DNA of 64,000 nucleotides from the NCBI GenBank assembly GCA_965153285.1, contig OZ229111.1. The stretch is one strand, 5' to 3'. Under the pieces are notes generated by a model, which ran no database searches, was not told the origin of the DNA, and worked only from the letters and a program-made list of their open reading frames with translations. A program made the translations under genes and the position numbers. Shown in pieces: positions 39,481 through 63,522 of the stretch. Every line of letters begins with the position of its first letter. Position 1 is the first letter of the stretch. The stretch is from Podarcis tiliguerta. Lineage: Eukaryota.

Positions 39481-39540
39481 TACTATCATAATTCATCATT
39501 TCAGGGTGCCCAGGGTCTTTCAGCCATCAAACACCAAGGC

Positions 39541-39676
39541 CAGGCATAGGCAAACTCGGCCCTCCAGATGTTTTGGGACTACAACTCCCATCATCCCTGA
39601 CCACTGGTCCTGTTAGCTAGGGATGATCGGAGTTGTAGTCCCAAAACATCTGGAGGGCCGAGTCTGCCTATGCCTG
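39541..39676. mobile_element. Palindromic hAT-like MITE (136 bp)
   Basis: ~58-bp near-perfect inverted arms CAGGCATAGGCAAACTCGGCCCTCCAGATGTTTTGGGACTACAACTCCCATCATCCCT. Degenerate relatives at ~3960-4040, 26690-26800, 33160-33240, 36690-36790, 52120-52255 and 60140-60260. Confidence 0.88.
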
Positions 39677-41350
39677 GCCTAGGTTAACCAGAATGTTTTG
39701 AATTTATGGAAATAGCAAAAATTATGCAGGGGCCTCTAGGAAAGAAAGCAGCAAGATTTCAGGAGGCTGGATGTAGTGGTTAGGAAGTAACGATGAATGG
39801 GACTAAAGGTCACACAAGCGACTCATAATGCTGATTTGAGAGGAAGAAATGTGGCACAAGGGCAAATGGACTTGAATGTCCAGCATTTTAAAAACAAGCA
39901 GTACTTGCAAAGAACACAGGATAGACAAGAACAAGATGATATGTCACTTCAAGAACATTTCCACGAAGCATGGGGATTGCAGAGACCTGGTAGAATCATT
40001 CTGATAAAGAGCTAGATGGTCACCTCTTCACACCACCATGATGTTTGCCTAATAGGGCGATTTTTACCAGCACACCTTTTGTATAGATTTTGAAACATCT
40101 GAATTGGCCTGAATCACTTTAGAGGTCCCCAACTTCAGTTCCGGTGCTTTGGAGAGATCCCCCTTCAGCTCAGACAAGCCTGAAATTTGTCCAAAGTGCT
40201 CCCACTTTTGGGGGGGATCTGTCTGAATCTGCTGCTCATGCCTGTCCTTTACAGGTCATTGGGTCTGACTCCCAGGTAAATGAAAGCCACTGCAGAGATC
40301 TCTGTGGAGGCTAAAGCAAGACTTAGGCTGCAGCCCCCAAATCTCCCAAGTTAATAGAATTTTTGTCATTCTTTTTATGCATTTCAGTGCAGGTGCTGCT
40401 CCAATTTAAATGCGGCATTAGCAAAGTTGAAGGCAACTGTTTTATAGATTTCACCAAACTATTTCATTAGAAGCGCAACTGCATTTGTCCACTTGTTTCT
40501 TTCTAAAACAAATTAAGTTGTTTTGCCAACTCACTTAGGTCATTAGCACGGTCTTTCAGCAGCTTTGGTTGCCTTGGTTCCAATCCATTAATTTAAAACT
40601 GTGGCTTCAGTGAGATTCTCATTTGTGACTTAATGCTTTTATTTTATCCAAGAAAGTCCTTTGTCTCATTCTGCAGTGAACCCTGCTGCTTTAACCCTGA
40701 CCGGAGGTTTTGTTTCACTTAGCTGGCAACGGAGCTCAGGTTCTGTCATTCACACACACACATTTCTTTTAAAATCCTGTTGCATGCCTTCCTCATTTAG
40801 TGAATTACTGTATTCTCAGGAGGCTATTTCAGGAGCAGAAAGCGCTCTATTTGTGTTCAATTTGGGGAATAAGCAGAATGGTTGCTCGTCTTTAATTCCT
40901 GGATTCTTCATCTGCCCCCACTGGGATAAGGAAGGGTGGGGTCAGGTCACTGCCGTCATATTTAAAAGGTATTAACTGCTCTCGGGAGGTATAAAACTGT
41001 TCTGTTCGTGCTTGTTCCCTCAACCCTCTTGGAAATTCCAAGAATCTGTCACCACCCTGATAATTCGGAGCGGGGAGGTGGGGAGAAGATGGTGGAGGGG
41101 TTTCGTGTGCAAGATAAAAATAAATTTTCAGTCAAGTTTTTGGCATGCTTCTGTTTGTATTATTTTCACTGACAGTACTCTAACGCAACCACACACAGAC
41201 TCCCAGGTAAATGTTTATAGGATTGCAGCCTTAATTTTTGTAGGTTAATAGAAGGCTGAACCTCCATCTGCAACGCACTGTACAAGAAACAAAACAAAAC
41301 GAAAAACCCTACTTCAAAGGGTATTTGAACATGTAATGGAAAAGCAGGTT

Positions 41351-41356: not shown

Positions 41357-44300
41357 ATGTCATTTTGTCCATTATTCAGCATTGCTGTAAATGGCTTACA
41401 TTTACTGCAACTTCTGTACAGACGTGTGGCTTTGAATTTAATAGAACAGCAAAATTTAAAATGAAAAATAAATGCTCAACAGTTCCACACAAGATTTTAC
41501 AATCCAACATTTCACTGTGTAGGTGAAAAGACATGGTTACTACAGAGTTATTCGGCATGAATAAAAAACTACAACTTTTTATTTTTAAACAGGAGTCACT
41601 TGTTTTAATTTTTTTTTACACTGTTTAAAATTACTGTGATAAAAATAACAAAAAAAGCTTTTTAATAATGCCATACACCAGCATAATATAGGATTTGTCC
41701 CCATTATATATCTTTTGTATAATATACAAAATAGAACGTTGACACACTACTGAATCCGTGCTATTAAGCCTGGGCTTGTATGGTTTTGGGGGGTTGGGGC
41801 GAAAGGAGGCTATTTTCACACACGCAGCCTTTTTACCAGCAAACAAAAGCCTCAAAAAGGGCCCTTCAGTGTTTTCCAATAATATGAGGCTTGAAAGTAC
41901 GGTTCCTACATTGACAGCAGTAGCATAAAAATGTGTGTACATTCAGGGCAATTGTGCCCAATTGGTTTTAATATTGACCAGGCAGTGGTGGATGAGGCTC
42001 AATTCTGAAAGAGGCTGGAGACTCTGGTCCCTTTCCACAAAGTACTTAAGCACATACTTTATCTTGCAGTGGGTTCAAAACGCCAGGGCCTTGCCACCCA
42101 TTCCTCAGATGTCTCAACCCTCCTACACTTGAGGGGCCAGAACTGGCCCCATGGGCTTGTCAAAACATGCAAAAGGTTTTCCCCTCCCCTGACATCGATT
42201 TCATTTGCTGAAAATCATGGGAGCCTATTGTTCTGTGATGTCAAAATACCACCCCATGTTTCTATGGGTGTTCCAAAAGGATTCGCTGACATGTCATGCA
42301 GGGCATAAACAGCCCCACTGTGATGAAAGCTTTGTGTAAGCACCACAACAGCAACTTAGTGCTGATGCAACAGTAAAGCTAAGGAGGCATTAACTACCCA
42401 AGTTAATTTTAAAATTTTAACTCTTATGTCCAAAAGCTTACACAGCACCAGGGAAAGCATTTGTGTAACAGTATGTCAGGTAGGTTCTATAAAAGTTCTC
42501 GGGCTTCTGCTCGACGAAGCGGAAGAACGTCTTTGGATTTATTTTCACTTTACTTTGGCACTAAAGTATATAACACTACTTGTCAACAGAAGACACTGTC
42601 TGCAGACACACCTGTAGCTCTGGACCCAGCTTTTCTGTTGGAGCGGGGGGGGGGGTGTGCATCTCTCAAAGAAGATGTTAAGAGCTGTAGAAATTACAGA
42701 CCTCCCCATCCCACCAGCTACCATCCACCTGTACATTTAATATGGTTTTGTAAATAGTACTTTAAAAAAAAAAAAAACTAAAACGGGTTCTGCCTGACAG
42801 CATTTAACTCATTCTTTGCAAGTGTAGAAGGGTTAAGTTCTTTGCATAATCAGCATCGGAATACACACTAGGTTGAAGAATTAAGGCCCCACTGAGTTTC
42901 TGCATGCTGAACAAAATGAAGATGTGCTATCCTATCTTGTGAGCCTGCATATTTGTAATCGCTCCACATGATGTGCGTATATGAATATGGTAAATGGGAC
43001 TAGCCTCGGTTCTCAGTTCTCCACCATCTGCTTTCTTCCCACCTCTGTTCCTAATACGCTGTTATTCTGTCAAGTTAAGTGGCTGTGTTTCTAAAGGTAG
43101 GCTGGCACTTGTTCCCCCAGTTGTGCGCACTTTCTCAGCCTCTGCTGTTTTCAAGGAAACTCAATGCTGCATTTTTGGTTTAATACGGTACGGCTGGCAA
43201 GATTGGCAAACCAATCCTAAGCACATTTGCCTGGAAGTCAGTCCCAAAGATTTTATAGGACTTACTTCGAAGTAAATGTGCTCAGGCTTAAGGCTAAGGC
43301 TCTCAGTTACTTTAGTGGTGTATAAGTGATAAAATTTCCTCTCTCCGCTTGCATGCCCTAACATATCCTATGAAAGGCCATTCCTATTAGTTTCCAAGTG
43401 CAATTCTAACATACAGCATGCATATCTGGGGCTACCCATCTTATTTCTGTTAGCATGTTGTGGCAAGGCACTGAAGAGACAGAAGTCAGAATATTCCCTG
43501 CTTTATTTGAAGTGCTGATTTTCCCCAGCATGAAAAAGACTAGCCAGACAAGAAACAACATACCTTTTGCTGATGCTTACGTACTTTAAATGGCTTGTAC
43601 TTATATTCTTAACAGCACATTTAAATTGAAAGATCTTTTCCAGAATCAGCATTTTTAAAAAGTGAAATCAAAGTCCAAAAACTGAGCAAAAATACATGAA
43701 ATCAAAAGAATTAGAGCCTCTTTTCCACCGCTGAAGTACTTGTTTGCACATAGTCATAATATTGATTTCTGTATACCTCACTTGTATAGGTAAACCACCA
43801 CACATACATTTGTCCATGGATGCAGTGCTAGCTTCCTTAAACTTGGACTAAAATGTTTACTACACATCAGTTCCCAAGTTCAACTTTCCAAATTTTCCTT
43901 TGAAATAAAGACAGGGTGTCATGATTTATCTTTTCAGGAACCTTTTTGAAACCAAATACTTGAGTCTCTTAGCATTAACTAAAATCAGGCAGAATACACG
44001 TTTTCATCCCAATGGTTTGCAAACTAATGTTAAAATACTCTCTGAAGCTTAGATTAACTGTTAAAACATACATACTTTAAAGAGCTTATTCAAGAAGAGA
44101 GACAGGTTTCTTACCTGTTTCTGGTATCCTTTGAGTGGTCATCTGTGCATAACACAACTGTATTCTATGCAGAACATGTTTAGAACCTTCCAGAGCCCTA
44201 GCCAGGGAGCTGGTGCTCCTGTGGAAAAGTTCACAGAGAGAAACGCAGGCAGCACATTCTCAAGGAGGTGGTGCTTGCCCTATCCCCCCTCCCCTCCCCT

Positions 44301-45481
44301 CCCCTCCCCTCCCCAGATAATTGCAAAGAGGCTCGCAGCACCAGAGGATGAGTTACTTGACAAAAGCTCTGTAAGGTTCTCAAGATGCTATGCATAGGTG
44401 CAGCACCCAATTGTGGGACTGCACAGAGATCAAAAAGAATGATTACTGTTATTAAAAGGTAGTATTTTACTTGAAAGTAGCTGGGGATTTCCATTTATGA
44501 GCTTAACGTTTGTTGTTGGTGTTGTTTTTTTAAAAAAAAGATTTAAAAACAGATAGTTCAGGTAAAAACTCCTATTTTACCAGGAGCATTTTTGTTGAAT
44601 AATTAGAAATGTATTTAGTAGATGGTGAACAACCTATGCTCTATTATTTACATATTGCTGGTACCTGTATGCATTTTAACTGCCAAATTTGTCTCACTGT
44701 TTTGCGGTGCTCTGTGAGGCTATATGTGAAAGTAACCCCATACATAGAGAAGTGTGGACATACGAACACACTACTTTATTTTTTGGGGGGTGGGATAGGG
44801 GGAAGGGTCAAATAAACCTGCACATCTGCTGCAGGTTTAGTCCTGGAATGTGAGGGGACCAAGCGCACGGGCTGGGCAATTAAATTCAACCTCCAGCTCC
44901 CGTGTTTTTCTTACAGCGGACTAATGGATTTAGGTTTCAGCCCGAGGAACTCCCACCGAATATGGGTAAGTGCCTTTAAAACAAAAAGGAAAGCAAAAGG
45001 AAAGGATAAAAACAAACAAACAATAGAAACACACCAAGTAAAACTAGAGTACCTCTTTAGATACTTCAGAACAATGCTGCCAGGATTAATACTTCCAGAC
45101 AAACCACAATTTGTATGGGTTACCATTTAACACATTTGTGACCCCTAGAAAAAATATATCACATGTCATGATAAAGCAATCTGTCATCTAAAAACCATTC
45201 TTATGATACACTATACAAGCTATTTTACAATAATTTGATAAATTGCTTTTAAAGCTGTAGTAGCCCTTCCTTCCTTTTCAAACTCTACCAAATGATATCT
45301 ATTTGAAAATATAACTAAAAAAATATTAGTAGCATCATATTACATTTGATTGTTAACTCCTGTTAAGTAATTAAACCCCCATTAATTTCTTTTTACAGAA
45401 ATATCCAGGCCACTTTGAACAAAAATATTTTTTCTTTCTTTCTTTTGAGTGGCGTAGCATTTACAATTTTCTGAGAATTCC

Positions 45482-45489
45482 TAAGGTGC
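45482..45489 (-). promoter_or_regulatory. miR-18 8-mer seed match GCACCTTA in NR3C1 3'UTR
   Basis: Exact 8-mer in the mRNA sense, inside a conserved-looking block. miR-18 repression of GR is established in mammals. Confidence 0.65.
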
Positions 45490-47225
45490 TCAGAGGATAG
45501 GCTACTACAGCTTGCAAATTGTTTTAAAATATAAATCAATGATGACAAGGAAAAATTCACAAGACTTACATGGTTGTAAATTCACAAGACTTATATGGTG
45601 GTTGTTTTTATGGCACACTAGTAGTTTGATGCAGAAGGGTTGGGAGACGTACAGAGACAAAGCTCTAGTCTACACCACTAAATCAGTAGCGGAATTTTCG
45701 TGTTCTCCAGGAAACAAGATAGGATTGTTTGGGTGACAAATGAAGTGAAAATGGGTGTGTAAGAACACAAGTTTAGGGTTTTTATTTTCCAGAAAAGAGT
45801 TGTTTCTTTCTGTAGTTTGGTCTATTTTATTTTCTGCATAAAGGTAAAAATCTTACTTGAAGTAAAATCTTTTAAGAATCATTATAATACTAAACATAAT
45901 ATATACTGGGCATAATTACATTTATTTTTGTAATTCAATGATATTTATGTATATGTGTTTATATAAAGTATGTATACGTGTACGTATATACACATATAGA
46001 GTTCCTGACTATTGAAGTCAACAGAAATGAACCATCAACCTAAAATAGAGTCAAGATTTTGCCCAATCCAGGGAGTGATCCACAAGCAGAAACTGGCTTC
46101 TTTCTACTTATTGTTCTGCTTTACTGGGGTTCAAAAAGCTGTTGCAAAGGTAGGCTTGGGTGTGTGTGTTCAGGACTCGGGGCACTACTGCACTGGTGAG
46201 GCATGAGCTGCAGTACTATCATCTCGTAAGGCAGCCTTGCCATCCTCCAACCCCTTCCCCATAGGTTATAAGAAGCGGCAGTGCCAATCACATCTTAGGT
46301 TGGAGGGAGCAGATTCTCTGGAATGGCAACACTGGCTGTAATCCAACAATTCTGAGAAACCCAAGGAGGCAATTGCACAGCTTTGCACTTGTGGGAAAAA
46401 AAGATGAACTGATCATCAATATTGTCCTCCAAATAATTTTAAAAAAGCACAGGTTTTGCTACTTCTTAGTTATGTCCAAGGAGAACAGCAGACATGCCAA
46501 TTTTGGTGCACATCAGTTTTGTTCTGCGTTATGACAGTTGCTCTGGATTGTGGCCACTGTATATATAATATACACTGATGCACACAGAAGTACACACTCA
46601 TATGGCAATAGACTGAGTATGGAAAAAGTTAATTTTTCCATGTAGAAGTAAACTTTTAAACAATTATGCATATTTTCCTGAAGGTTTCCTGATGGGCAGT
46701 CAAGACTGATGTTTTTACTGTCAATCCAGCCCAAGAATCTTACAATTATGGCTATCACATTAAATGTAAATATCTAGTATGCTTTGTTTTAAAAAAAAAA
46801 GTTTCTGTTGACAAACCTGTTTAAGACAGAGCTAGTTTGCAAGTAGCTCACAGAATCTTTGACCAATATCAAAAGTATGCATGTCCAGTGTTCAGGTTAG
46901 ATTTGGATTACATTTCAATCCCTCCCACCCCACCCCCGCCACTGAAGAAAGCTGATTTTTATAGGCCAAATTTAAAAGGTGACATCTAAAAGGTGACTAT
47001 GACAGTCTTGATCAGGTTAGAAAAGTCAACCTATATTCACATGAGTATACTTAAAAGATTAATATCTAGAGGTCATTAAGCTATGAGCTGCCCCACTTTA
47101 AAAAAACAGCTGTACAATAGGCATCTTGACGTTTTACAAAAATTATGTAAGAAAAAATGAGCAAGCTTAGTTCACTGTATATAAAGTTAAAGGAAATTGC
47201 TAAAACCAGACAGTAATAGCTATAA

Positions 47226-47232
47226 AAGGCAC
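47226..47232 (-). promoter_or_regulatory. miR-124 seed match GTGCCTT in NR3C1 3'UTR (further TGCCTTA sites at 47660-47666 and 47679-47685)
   Basis: Exact seed matches in the mRNA sense. miR-124 repression of GR is established in mammals. Confidence 0.65.
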
Positions 47233-47686
47233 AACTTCCCTTTTCCGATATACAGTTGTAAACTTTCTTCATGTTACATGCATAAATCAAAATGCTACCT
47301 TAACTATACAAAAAATCTATACCAAAACAAAAACCTAGAAAATTTTATCCAGCCAACTGCAGAAATTCCTAGCAGAATGTTGACAATGTAGATTCTGAAC
47401 TTGACACTGCTGTTTTGGTATATCCTATCCTGTGAATATGATGGTGTTTCTGGAGGGAAAATCCCAAATCATATTTCCTTCTTCCTGTAATCATTCAGTT
47501 TGAGGCATCTGCTTCTGAAACCTAGGTCTTGGCCCTCTGTAAACCACATGTAGTGCATAATTACAAAACAAAAACAAGAACACCCAATATAGTTGCAAGG
47601 ACAAAATTAACAAGTCTTTTAGTTTGTAAAAAAGAAGCTATAATTGACTTTTTTTTCCTTAAGGCATTATTTCTGTATTAAGGCAG

Positions 47687-47839
47687 TCACTTCTGATGAA
47701 ATAGGAGTTTCTTGATATTCCCATTTGAATATTTTGGTAACTGATTGCTGATGATTTCTGCCAACATTTCTGGAAATTCAATACTCATGGATTTATCCAA
47801 AAACGTTTGGAAGCAAAAGCTTAGAAGATTCTCAACCAC
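47687..47839 (-). CDS. NR3C1: NR3C1 exon 9 (alpha) coding part, helices 11-12/AF-2 and stop
   Basis: Translates [50 protein letters not shown]. Acceptor ttgcag|, TGA at 47687-47689. Confidence 0.98.
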
Positions 47840-48314
47840 CTGCAAATGATAAGAGAATAATTTCTTAAAGGGAGCCTGAATTATCAATACAGTGTAGCAT
47901 ATATAAAATGCTGCAAGACGTTAAATATATCACAGCACAAATTAAAACTGATAAAAGAATGCTGGCTTAAATCAGATTTCAAAGCTGTTTATGAGTAAAA
48001 CTCTTGTTATAAAAATCCACAATGAAATACTGACATATAAAATGCCATCAGGATCCTTCCCACAGGGCAGTTGGTGGAAGGGGCCCTGTGGGGGACGCAC
48101 TAATGTCTTCTTTGCCTGCATCCCTACTTACTGGAATACTTTACAATCAATGGCCTAGAAGGGGCAGTGGGAGTCCAGAAAGGTACCTTTCTGAAGAACC
48201 TTAGCTTTACAATCAGGAAAGCTGTGCCTAGATGGCTTTTTCATTGGCCAGGTTTCATCCACATTGGTACTATCCTCAAATTGCACAGAATCAATGTATG
48301 GAAGCAAAACTTAC

Positions 48315-48472
48315 ATCATGCATGGAGTCCAAAAGTTTTGTCAGTTGATAAAATCGCTGCCAGTTCTGGCTCGAGTTTCCCTCTCTCTTCACTATAGCTT
48401 TCCCCAGTTCTTTGATGTAGGTCATACGAATTTCATCAAACAGAGCCTGACTCCTCAAGCCCTCCTTAGGAA
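48315..48472 (-). CDS. NR3C1: NR3C1 exon 8, LBD (158 nt)
   Basis: Translates (I)[52 protein letters not shown]. Acceptor tttcag|, donor GAT|gtaagt. Confidence 0.98.
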
Positions 48473-49393
48473 CTGAAATATGGAGATTAGTTTTTAGATT
48501 ACCTGAGTTTGTAAGCGTCCTACAACAGGATGTTTCTATTTACCGTAAACCAAGACGAGAAGTTAGAATCATGGTTTTAAATTGCGGATATTTATGCAGA
48601 CAATTGCAGAGAGTTCAGAGTTTCTGCATAAAATAAGTATTGTGAATAACACCATTAAAAGGCCGTTTTGGTTTTGTAGTCTAAGACAGCATGTAGCACA
48701 AGGAAAACCAGTACCCACTCTTGTGCACAAACCTCTCAAATTATAGGAAATTCTAAGTGACCTTGTCCATAGACATAGTATGGTTGTAAGATTTTGCACC
48801 ATGGAGATTAATGTTTCCTGGATTCATCCATCAACCGTGTCTCCAAATGGTGGTATTTCCAGGAAGAAATAAATGGCTATTGATTCTGCTTATTCTTCTA
48901 GTGTACCTAGAAAAATAAAACTCCCTTCTACTGAAAAAGCTTCTGCAAATTTCTCCTCCACAGGACACTACTGGGCTTTGAACATACCAGAGACTCATAC
49001 CTATTATCAGAGTCGACTTAAGTCTGAACAGAGCTTCCTTGTCCAAGCATTTATGTGCAAACTTTCATCAGCTCTCCAGCTACCACAAAGCTTGAACCAG
49101 TTTAAGAATTGAACATTTTAGTTACTTCTGGTGGCAAAATCGGTTTGGTCCAATAGATATTGTGACAAATTGTTAATTTCAAAATAATTTTAACATGCTT
49201 TTTGGACTATCATTTATGAGGTACACAAATGCTGACCCAAGACTGACAAAATGTGGTGGCCACAGAACTCTCTAATAAAGTGGACCTGAGAGTTCTAAAT
49301 TCAGTTCCCAGATCAGTGTTGAAGGAGAACTCTTTAAAAAGTGGTTTTGGTTGTGTGTTTTTAAAAAAAGAGGAATCACCAATGTTCACGTAC

Positions 49394-55730: not shown

Positions 55731-56565
55731 CCGTATTTTTCGCTCCATAGGACGCACTTTTTCCCCTCCAAAAATGAAGGGAAAATGTGTGTGCGTCCTA
55801 TGGAGTGAATGCAGGCTTTCGCTGAACCCTGGAGAGTGAGAGGGGTTGGTGCGCACCGACCCCTCTCGCTCTCCAGACTTCAGGAGAACCCCAGCGCCAG
55901 CCCCACAAGGTCGGGGGACAGCGGGGAGGCGGAACGCCGCCATCCCGCTGTCTCCCGATGTGGTTTGGAGGCTGACGGCGGGGAGACGCGTGCTTCTCCC
56001 CGCTGCCTGCCCCGCAAGCTCCGGGGACAGCAGGGAGGCGCAGCGCGTCTTCCCGCTGTCCCCAGACCTGGTCTGCATGCGATGTGGTTTGGAGGCTGAC
56101 GGCGGGGAGACGCGCGCTTCTCCCCGCTGCCTGCCCCGCAAGCTCCGGGGACAGCTGGGAGGCGCAGCGCATCTTCCCGCTGTCCCCGGACCTGGTCTGA
56201 AGGCAGGCGGTGGGGAGAAGAGGGCTTCTCCCCGCTGCCTGCCCCGCAAGCTCCGGGGACAGCTGGGAGGCGCAGCGCGTCTTCCCGCTGTCCCCGGACC
56301 TGGTCTGAAGGCAGGCGGTGGGGAGAAGAGCGCTTCTCCCCGCTGCCTGCCCCGCAAGCTCCGGGGACAGCTGGGAGGCGCAGCGCGTCTTCCCGCTGTC
56401 CCCGGACCTGGTCTGAAAGCAGGCGGTGGGGAGAAGAGCGCTTCTCCCCGCTGCTGGCCCCACAAGCGCCTGGGGGGGGGGGATAAATTTTTTTTCCTTT
56501 ATTTCCCCCCCAACAAACTTGGTGCGTCCTATGGGCCGGTGCGCCCTATGGAGCGAAAAATACAG
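55731..56565. mobile_element. Non-autonomous Tc1/mariner-superfamily (Tc2/pogo-type) MITE with GC-rich internal minisatellite
   Basis: 27-bp TIRs CCGTATTTTTCGCTCCATAGGACGCAC (2 mismatches between ends). TA target duplication at 55729-55730 and 56566-56567. Confidence 0.9.
55992..56455. repeat. 108-bp GC-rich tandem repeat (three 108-bp units, one 124-bp unit, one partial)
   Basis: gcttctccccgctgc recurs at 55992, 56116, 56224, 56332 and 56440. Confidence 0.95.
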
Positions 56566-62586: not shown

Positions 62587-63204
62587 AAATAAGTTGGAGT
62601 CTTTGTTATTAAATATACCAAGAAAAAAGCACACCAAGAACTCAGGCCAATGCAAGTTTCAATAGTGGGAGTGGTCCCTACTCAGAATTGAATAGTCAAT
62701 AGGACAGGAACAGGGCCATGTTTCAATGTATTCACCTTCATCAGCTAATTTTTAAGTTTGAAGTTTGAAAGTTTGAAGATTTTCAGATAAATATATCCTG
62801 TTATATATTGATATATAGAAAATAACAGGATATATCTATCCGAAAGTCTTCAAACTTACAAACTTAAAAATTTGCTAACGAAGGTGAAGACATCGAAACA
62901 GAGCCCTGTCCTGGTGTCCAATCAATAATTGACTTCTGACTTCTGCTCTATGATTGAAACTGAGTCTCCATCTGCAAGCTGATAAATTATAAGGATCAAC
63001 ATTATTGTCGAGTGAAAAAGAGAAAATCTTTGTAACGAATTATTGTGTTATACATATCTCTTTGAGTTTGTAATCTCTGTTAGAGTTTATAATCTCTATT
63101 TGAGTTTGTAATCTTTATTATAATACATAGTTTTGAATGGATTAGTTTTTGTTACTATTGACTATTGAATTGTGAGTAGGGACGACTCCCACTATTGAAA
63201 CTTA
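62587..63204. mobile_element. Penelope-like element remnant: inverted pseudo-LTRs with minimal hammerhead motifs
   Basis: Inverted arms ~62649-62805 versus ~62822-62912 and 63155-63207. Each arm has CT(G/A)A(T/C)GA...GAAAC...GT(C/T). A 13-bp direct repeat CACTAACCCACTT lies at 62574-62586 and 63205-63217. Confidence 0.72.
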
Positions 63205-63522
63205 CACTAACCCACTTCATGCATTATTCCAGTGATGGGATCAATGTGTAGAATGAAGCAGAGGGACTAGGCCACCAGTCCTGCACTCAACATCATGCAG
63301 CTTCCCCCACCCCTGATGTTCACATATTAGGCATGGATTTTTGAGTCTATGGGTACAGGCTGCCATCACAGCTGCACATCATAGGAAAGGCCAGGAAAAA
63401 GATGTGTGGCATCGGATGCAACGTGTCCCCACTGTCCTTTTCTATATTTGGGACATCTTCATATGAGTAATGTGCAAAGAGGCTTTCCATCTTTTATATA
63501 TGCAAAAATGAAGGATTTTCTA

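What the first reader, a model, noticed from the sequence alone, without database searches (positions are those of the whole stretch)
45241..45520. Long-range ~20-bp RNA stem in the GR 3'UTR, apparently conserved lizard-to-human, flanking the miR-18 site
Seen: in mRNA sense, AAGCUGUAGUAGCCUAUCCU (45513-45494) pairs with AGGAAGGGCUACUACAGCUU (45271-45252). That is 14 perfect Watson-Crick pairs and 19 of 20 positions paired, enclosing ~220 nt of AU-rich loop, with a further UUGC/GCAA pairing outside. The miR-18 8-mer GCACCUUA (45482-45489) starts 4 nt inside the 5' arm. Recalled, not verified: the human UTR has AAGCTGTAGTAGCCCTTTC and GAAGGGCTACTGCAGCTT at similar spacing, i.e. substitutions that keep pairing (A-U to G-U). 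Inference: a selected structure (Staufen-type duplex, localisation or stability switch, or control of miR-18 access). I know of no description of it.
Basis: partly seen in the sequence, partly recalled or inferred. Interest (0 to 1): 0.72.

Follow-up and report, generated by a model that had tools for sequence, protein, structure and literature searches.

The report
Long-range stem in glucocorticoid receptor mRNA
Two matching 20-letter stretches in the untranslated tail of this animal's glucocorticoid receptor gene are predicted to pair across a 222-letter loop, likely forming a docking site for double-stranded-RNA-binding proteins that would help set the message's lifetime, while the neighbouring miR-18 site is broken in a close relative and so is likely not what the stem serves.

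Summary
Arms 45513-45494 and 45271-45252 give 18 Watson-Crick pairs, one G-U and one A·A mismatch. They lie 2.2 kb past the stop codon of NR3C1. The core is predicted paired at p about 1.0. Shuffles rarely match it (7 of 1500), but real genomic DNA has a helix this strong about every 9 kb, 13 of 25 repeat-like. This one is single-copy.

Stranded RNA reads of a relative cover both arms as mRNA. They list one substitution in the surrounding 715 nt, and it breaks the miR-18 seed match. The stem does not change the energy needed to open that seed site (3.49 vs 3.50 kcal/mol), so a miR-18 switch is unsupported.

No mammal or bird orthologue could be fetched, so lizard-to-human conservation and covariation are untested.

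Best reading: a constrained long-range 3'UTR duplex with Staufen-type geometry that likely affects GR mRNA stability (0.4). It is a new candidate of a known kind; ten literature searches found no description. Interest 0.4.

The parts
47687..47839 (-). last coding exon segment of NR3C1 (glucocorticoid receptor; ends ...KKLLFHQK) with TGA stop at 47689-47687
   Evidence: best PDB matches are glucocorticoid receptor, E 1e-26; the four other genomic matches are 42-57% identical
43400..47686 (-). NR3C1 3'UTR, at least 4.3 kb; 3' end lies beyond 43400 and was not mapped
   Evidence: stranded bulk RNA reads of related organism C in 30 of 30 bins of 43400-46900, one direction only, no joints; continuity from the stop codon to 46900 is inferred
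45494..45513 (-). 5' arm of the long-range stem
   Evidence: core pair probabilities 0.92-1.00 at positions 2-15 in four folds
45252..45271 (-). 3' arm of the long-range stem
   Evidence: arm duplex -31.4 kcal/mol
45272..45493 (-). 222-nt AU-rich loop (28% GC), predicted multibranch. Inner helices: 45453-45448/45414-45409 (p 0.98), 45309-45301/45283-45275 (0.90), 45297-45294/45289-45286 (0.97), 45493-45489/45475-45471 (0.68)
   Evidence: prediction only
45482..45489 (-). 8-mer match to a mir-17-family (miR-18-type) microRNA encoded in this genome; altered at 45486 in organism C
   Evidence: 11/11, 14/14 and 2/2 reads carry the other letter
45243..45246 (-). weak outer extension pairing with 45517-45514 across a 5-nt bulge
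   Evidence: p 0.68-0.89 in the short fold, 0.30-0.41 in longer folds
45023..45737 (-). 715-nt low-divergence block containing the stem
   Evidence: 1 listed substitution and 1 listed single-base insertion versus organism C, against 17 substitutions in 397 nt at 46000-46396

Best explanation
The two 20-nt arms lie in the transcribed 3'UTR of the glucocorticoid receptor gene and are predicted to pair into a 19-bp symmetric duplex, which likely is kept by selection and likely serves as a Staufen-type double-stranded-RNA-binding site that would compact the UTR and slow GR mRNA decay. Shown: sequence, complementarity, single copy, mRNA-sense transcription in a relative, and low divergence of the surrounding block in that one relative. 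Predicted: duplex formation and the multibranch loop. Inferred by analogy only: protein binding and the direction of the effect on stability. The miR-18 site is a neighbour, not the purpose.
For: Pairing and coordinates. The core stays at p 0.92-1.00 in 296-901-nt contexts and at 30 C; the next-best non-repeat long-range helix in 43400-46900, apart from a distal inverted repeat, is -12.9 kcal/mol. Rare in shuffles: 36 of 3000 and 7 of 1500. Single copy, no target-site duplication, and the 14-mer occurs only 11 times in 1.46 Gb, unlike the 13 of 25 strong background helices that are repeat-like. Transcribed in mRNA sense at about 11-18x around both arms. One substitution in 715 nt, scan p 0.008 under uniform placement. 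The human NR3C1 3'UTR is flagged 'Strictly_conserved' in PMC6581050 Supplemental Table 2 (gene-level, not this stem). STAU1 long-range duplexes have a span peak at 252 nt, median 20 paired bases, symmetry and few bulges, and go with low degradation rates (PMC10164587 passages).
Against: No covariation evidence: no distant orthologue was obtained, and zero changes in 40 nt is expected by chance (p 0.59). The whole 715-nt block is constrained, so the arms are not shown to be specially constrained. Equally strong helices occur once per about 9 kb in this genome, 12 of 25 with no copy in the 260-kb sample, and also downstream of two of three paralogue stop codons. The antisense strand pairs nearly as well (-30.4 vs -31.4), so sequence alone does not single out RNA. 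Only 9 of 19 pairs are A-U, whereas long-range STAU1 duplexes are described as AU-rich. NR3C1 is not named in the main text of the STAU1 atlas (supplement unreadable). PMC6581050 reports that strictly conserved 3'UTR elements tend to be unstructured in vivo. The uniform-rate null is naive, and only 40 of 76 difference rows were displayed.
Confidence: 0.4

Rival explanations
1. The complementarity is incidental. The arms sit in a block conserved for linear protein or microRNA sites; the helix may form but is not itself selected.
For: Real-genome rate of about 1 such helix per 9 kb; the constraint covers 715 nt, not just the arms; no covariation shown; linear motif matches (recalled consensus patterns: ARE, QKI, Musashi-type) occur in the block, one inside the 5' arm.
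Against: Rare in shuffled sequence. Many background helices come from young repeats, and this one is single-copy and in slowly evolving sequence.
Confidence: 0.27
2. The duplex is real and selected but works without Staufen, for example as a scaffold that presents the AU-rich loop to other RNA-binding proteins, as a localisation element, or as an ADAR substrate.
For: Well-defined predicted inner helices in the loop; low divergence of the loop as well as the arms.
Against: No editing-type difference is listed in the arms. That test is weak: 3 or more reads were needed at 11-15x depth, and 3-4 T>C rows per bulk run were not displayed. No positive evidence for any given protein.
Confidence: 0.17
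3. The arms are a DNA-level feature: terminal inverted repeats of an ancient miniature transposon, or inverted transcription-factor sites of an enhancer overlapping the UTR.
For: A roughly 260-bp AT-rich element bounded by inverted repeats is MITE-like, and such elements are common in this genome; both strands pair about equally.
Against: No target-site duplication for lengths 2-10; single BLAST match in the genome (a lower bound); 14-mer count near chance.
Confidence: 0.1
4. The stem is a switch that controls access of miR-18 to its site.
For: The site is 4 nt from the 5' arm; opening a full 23-nt footprint costs 22.1 kcal/mol with the stem and 9.4 without; miR-18a is listed among GR regulators in PMC5808749 (passage).
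Against: Opening the 8-mer costs 3.49 with the stem, 3.50 without, and 3.39-3.53 in 12 arm scrambles. Predicted 3' pairing needs a 12-nt target bulge. The seed match is lost in all 27 covering reads of organism C while no arm change is listed.
Confidence: 0.06

Closest known systems
STAU1-bound long-range 3'UTR duplexes (hiCLIP atlas, PMC10164587; passages read)
   Same: 3'UTR location, span over 100 nt and near the 252-nt peak, about 20 paired bases, symmetric internal mismatch, no bulge, uninterrupted run over 12 bp
   Different: No binding or crosslinking evidence here; only 9 of 19 pairs are A-U; NR3C1 is not named in that paper's main text and its supplement was unreadable
ARF1 3'UTR Staufen-binding site (named in PMC10164587; its roughly 19-bp stem is recalled, from no call)
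   Same: A strong stem of about 20 bp with G-C pairs closing a long loop in a 3'UTR
   Different: ARF1 is experimentally proven; this one is predicted only and has a longer AU-rich loop
[quoted passage not shown]
   Same: Long-range complementary pair of at least 10 nt, below -15 kcal/mol, within 10 kb
   Different: That catalogue excludes all annotated exons, so a 3'UTR pair like this falls outside it; its functions concern splicing and intronic polyadenylation
miR-18a site of the NR3C1 3'UTR (PMC5808749 review passage)
   Same: An 8-mer match to this genome's miR-18-type microRNA is present
   Different: Whether it is the same site as in rodents was not tested; it is lost in a close relative and not gated by the stem in silico

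Membership tests
STAU1-type long-range 3'UTR duplex | lies in a transcribed 3'UTR | tested here: met
   (reads from a relative, not the window's own species)
STAU1-type long-range 3'UTR duplex | span over 100 nt, about 20 paired bases, symmetric, uninterrupted run of 12 or more | tested here: met
   222-nt loop, 19 of 20 paired, 1x1 mismatch, 15 contiguous pairs; criteria
STAU1-type long-range 3'UTR duplex | A:U-rich stem | tested here: inconclusive
   9 of 19 pairs A-U; no numerical threshold seen in the passages read
STAU1-type long-range 3'UTR duplex | duplex forms in cells and is bound by STAU1/2 | not testable with these tools
   hiCLIP and PARIS tables not readable
Evolutionarily conserved RNA structure | pairing kept across distant species with compensatory changes | not testable with these tools
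   no distant orthologue retrieved
Evolutionarily conserved RNA structure | arms more constrained than surroundings in close relatives | tested here: inconclusive
   0 listed changes in 40 nt (p 0.59); the whole block is constrained; one relative only
miR-18 accessibility switch | seed match to miR-18 present | tested here: met
   the name miR-18 for the L027 microRNA is recalled, the call gives only family mir-17
miR-18 accessibility switch | stem changes seed-site accessibility | tested here: not met
   3.49 vs 3.50 kcal/mol
miR-18 accessibility switch | site retained together with the stem in relatives | tested here: not met
   45486 changed in 27 of 27 reads of organism C
MITE / DNA transposon relic | target-site duplication | tested here: not met
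MITE / DNA transposon relic | multiple genomic copies | tested here: not met
   (search counts are lower bounds; ancient-repeat libraries not available)
PCCR (Kalmykova catalogue) | intronic location | tested here: not met
   contiguous mRNA-sense reads, no joints; definition
Rfam families | match at the gathering score | tested here: not met
   2 weak matches in 44000-48500, both far below gathering and outside the stem
ADAR editing substrate | A-to-G differences in the stem in RNA reads | tested here: inconclusive
   none listed; depth 11-15x and 36 of 76 rows not displayed

The most novel reading that the evidence does not exclude
The arms close an amniote-wide, roughly 260-nt multibranch RNA domain in GR mRNA: an unrecognised cis-regulator that sets glucocorticoid receptor dose through double-stranded-RNA-binding proteins, possibly hormone-responsive, and older and more constrained than the well-studied microRNA site inside it.
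Probability: 0.17. Interest if true: 0.72.

Novelty: new member of a known kind. Interest (0 to 1): 0.4.

Why it matters
GR level sets stress-axis feedback and steroid-drug response. The review passages read here (PMC5808749) treat its 3'UTR as a set of microRNA sites, and the term 'secondary structure' does not occur in that text. A selected long-range duplex would add a compact, directly mutable control element, and reporter constructs holding only one arm would miss it. It sits outside intron-only catalogues of long-range pairs. The loss of the miR-18 seed in a close relative is a small natural experiment separating the two features.

Tried and rejected
Orthologue hunt, all empty.
- Exact 24-mer in metagenome contigs: 0.
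- Exon peptide in metagenome contigs: 2 loci from 526 pattern matches. One ends at the match with no UTR, the other is interrupted by stops and unrelated; both dropped.
- Arm-plus-seed pattern in prokaryote and viral contigs: 0. Plasmid blastn: no match.
- Arm motifs in paper texts: 21 papers, 20 listed, none on GR by title; the two 5'-arm terms had 0 hits among those listed.

Supplements.
- PMC8728028: 5 files, 0 hits.
- PMC5538553: 0 hits, but the main data files were not searched.
- PMC6581050: gene-level row only; table cut when stored.
- PMC3650559: one NR3C1 chimera with miR-421 elsewhere; file cut.
- PMC4674787: 3 files, 0 hits. PMC10573301: no files held.
- Seven look-ups by recalled id found no paper.

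Other.
- The run index gave 'no RNA holder listed'; not used as evidence.
- The depth dip over the loop and the missing contig of run X5 were not used (the tool states holes prove nothing).
- Earlier-findings look-ups were empty.
- Rfam, pre-miRNA and MITE readings were rejected.
- timed out and was rerun smaller.

Full report
Gene and place. Six-frame translation shows glucocorticoid-receptor exons on the minus strand, ending ...KKLLFHQK with TGA at 47689-47687. The 50-residue last exon matches PDB glucocorticoid receptor chains best (E 1e-26; mineralocorticoid receptor about 1e-12). The genome holds four weaker paralogous exons. The 5' arm begins 2173 nt past the stop.

Observation. The arms are exactly as stated: 14 Watson-Crick pairs, U-G, A·A, then 4 Watson-Crick pairs, with 222 nt between them. 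The 296-nt fold gives -72.2 kcal/mol, z -4.35, 0 of 200 shuffles; the window was chosen around the stem, so this overstates significance. Positions 2-15 stay at p 0.92-1.00 in 296-, 621- and 901-nt contexts and at 30 C, while the outer UUGC/GCAA extension falls to 0.30-0.41. The miR-18 8-mer lies in the loop, 4 nt from the arm.

Chance. A perfect helix of 14 bp or more within 300 nt arose in 36 of 3000 block shuffles of 3.27 kb of UTR. A helix of -31.4 kcal/mol or better arose in 7 of 1500 shuffles of 3.5 kb. Real DNA is richer: 25 distinct loci in 229 kb (17 arbitrary 10-kb stretches plus the rest of the window), 13 with copies elsewhere in the sample. Within 5 kb of the stop, two of three paralogues also had a helix this strong. 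Strength alone is therefore not exceptional. What sets this stem apart is that it is single-copy, has no target-site duplication, has a 14-mer found only 11 times in 1.46 Gb, two being these arms, and lies in slowly evolving sequence.

Transcription and relatives. Four of the 24 runs listed were laid on 43400-46900: two bulk and one single-cell raw RNA run of related organism C, and one contig set of organism B. Bulk reads (522 and 637) cover 30 of 30 bins in one direction, consistent with a minus-strand transcript, with no joints. The organism B contig did not reach the stem.

Divergence in the relative. Forty of 76 difference rows were displayed. They end at 46396 and include rows at depth 8, so a fixed arm difference at depth 11-15 would probably have shown, but that is inference. 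Between 45023 and 45737 there is one listed substitution and one single-base insertion, against 17 substitutions in 397 nt at 46000-46396 (scan p 0.008 under a naive uniform null). No change in the 40 arm bases is expected anyway (p 0.59), so the arms are not shown to be more constrained than the block. The listed differences predict 0.72 of 31-mers intact against 0.65-0.67 in the index, so a few differences are unlisted.

miR-18. This genome encodes mir-17-family hairpins whose first eight bases complement the site (the name miR-18 is recalled). The single substitution in the block, 45486, falls inside the 8-mer in 11/11, 14/14 and 2/2 reads from two studies, raising the predicted hybrid energy from -18.7 to -14.6 and leaving the stem unchanged. 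Opening the 8-mer costs 3.49 kcal/mol with the stem, 3.50 with the 3' arm held open and 3.39-3.53 in 12 arm scrambles. Only a full 23-nt footprint is affected (22.1 vs 9.4), and predicted 3' pairing needs a 12-nt target bulge. The switch idea is not supported.

Deep conservation. The only fetched support is gene-level: NR3C1 is marked 'Strictly_conserved' in Supplemental Table 2 of PMC6581050. The same paper's passages say strictly conserved 3'UTR elements tend to be unstructured in vivo, which cuts against a structural reading.

Mechanism. Shown: sequence, transcription in a relative, block-level constraint. Predicted: a 19-bp duplex closing a multibranch AU-rich loop. Inferred: binding by a double-stranded-RNA-binding protein. 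PMC10164587 (abstract and passages) describes STAU1 long-range 3'UTR duplexes with a span peak at 252 nt, median 20 paired bases, symmetry and few bulges, correlated with low degradation. The geometry fits, though the stem is only 9/19 A-U and many unbound duplexes could fit too. I put this mechanism at 0.4, incidental complementarity at 0.27, a selected duplex with another reader at 0.17, a DNA-level relic at 0.10 and a miR-18 switch at 0.06. No editing-type change is listed in the arms, but depth makes that inconclusive.

What is in print. Ten full-text searches of the held library found no description of this stem; most were judged from listings and abstract starts. Passages were read in PMC10164587, PMC8052449, PMC5808749, PMC5516038 (NR3C1 as a transcription factor only), PMC6581050, PMC10573301 and PMC3708107 (a 5' variant). 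Supplements were term-searched in PMC8728028, PMC5538553, PMC6581050, PMC3650559 and PMC4674787. The hiCLIP atlas supplement, the main data files of the vertebrate conserved-structure screen PMC5538553, and the original hiCLIP and PARIS papers could not be seen and may list this duplex. Subscription journals are largely missing from the library. PMC8052449 excludes exons by design.

Verdict. A real, single-copy, robustly predicted long-range stem in a constrained part of the GR 3'UTR. It works like a Staufen-type duplex by geometry; membership is untested. New candidate of a known kind; interest 0.4. One amniote alignment would move that score substantially either way.

Noticed in passing
window 44165-44397 (minus strand): A second, longer imperfect inverted repeat (59-nt arms, 71% complementary, helix -41.9 kcal/mol) in the transcribed distal UTR, single-copy in the genome. 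The relative's change at 44191 breaks or shifts a predicted G-C pair.
   Followed up: partly
window 45486: Natural loss of the miR-18 seed match in organism C: the only listed substitution in a 715-nt block. The direction of change was not polarised by any search.
   Followed up: partly
window 43400-44450: mRNA-sense reads continue at about 20-50x in most bins to the end of the laid stretch, so the GR 3'UTR is at least 4.3 kb. AATAAA at 43507-43502 and ATTAAA at 43184-43179 are candidate distal signals.
   Followed up: no
window 39532-39683: MITE-like hairpin with a 35-bp perfect helix; copies at 9 other places in a 260-kb sample.
   Followed up: partly
window 55907-56475: GC-rich 108-bp tandem array (3.6 copies, 94% matches) with internal inverted repeats, in a GR intron.
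   Followed up: no
window 62640-63215: Nested long inverted repeats (up to 60 nt) in a GR intron, with no other copy in the 260-kb sample.
   Followed up: no
G000:C25:20232591 and G000:C24:11426484: Two near-equal matches (42% identity each) to the GR last exon on separate contigs, perhaps a duplicated or haplotype-split steroid receptor gene.
   Followed up: no
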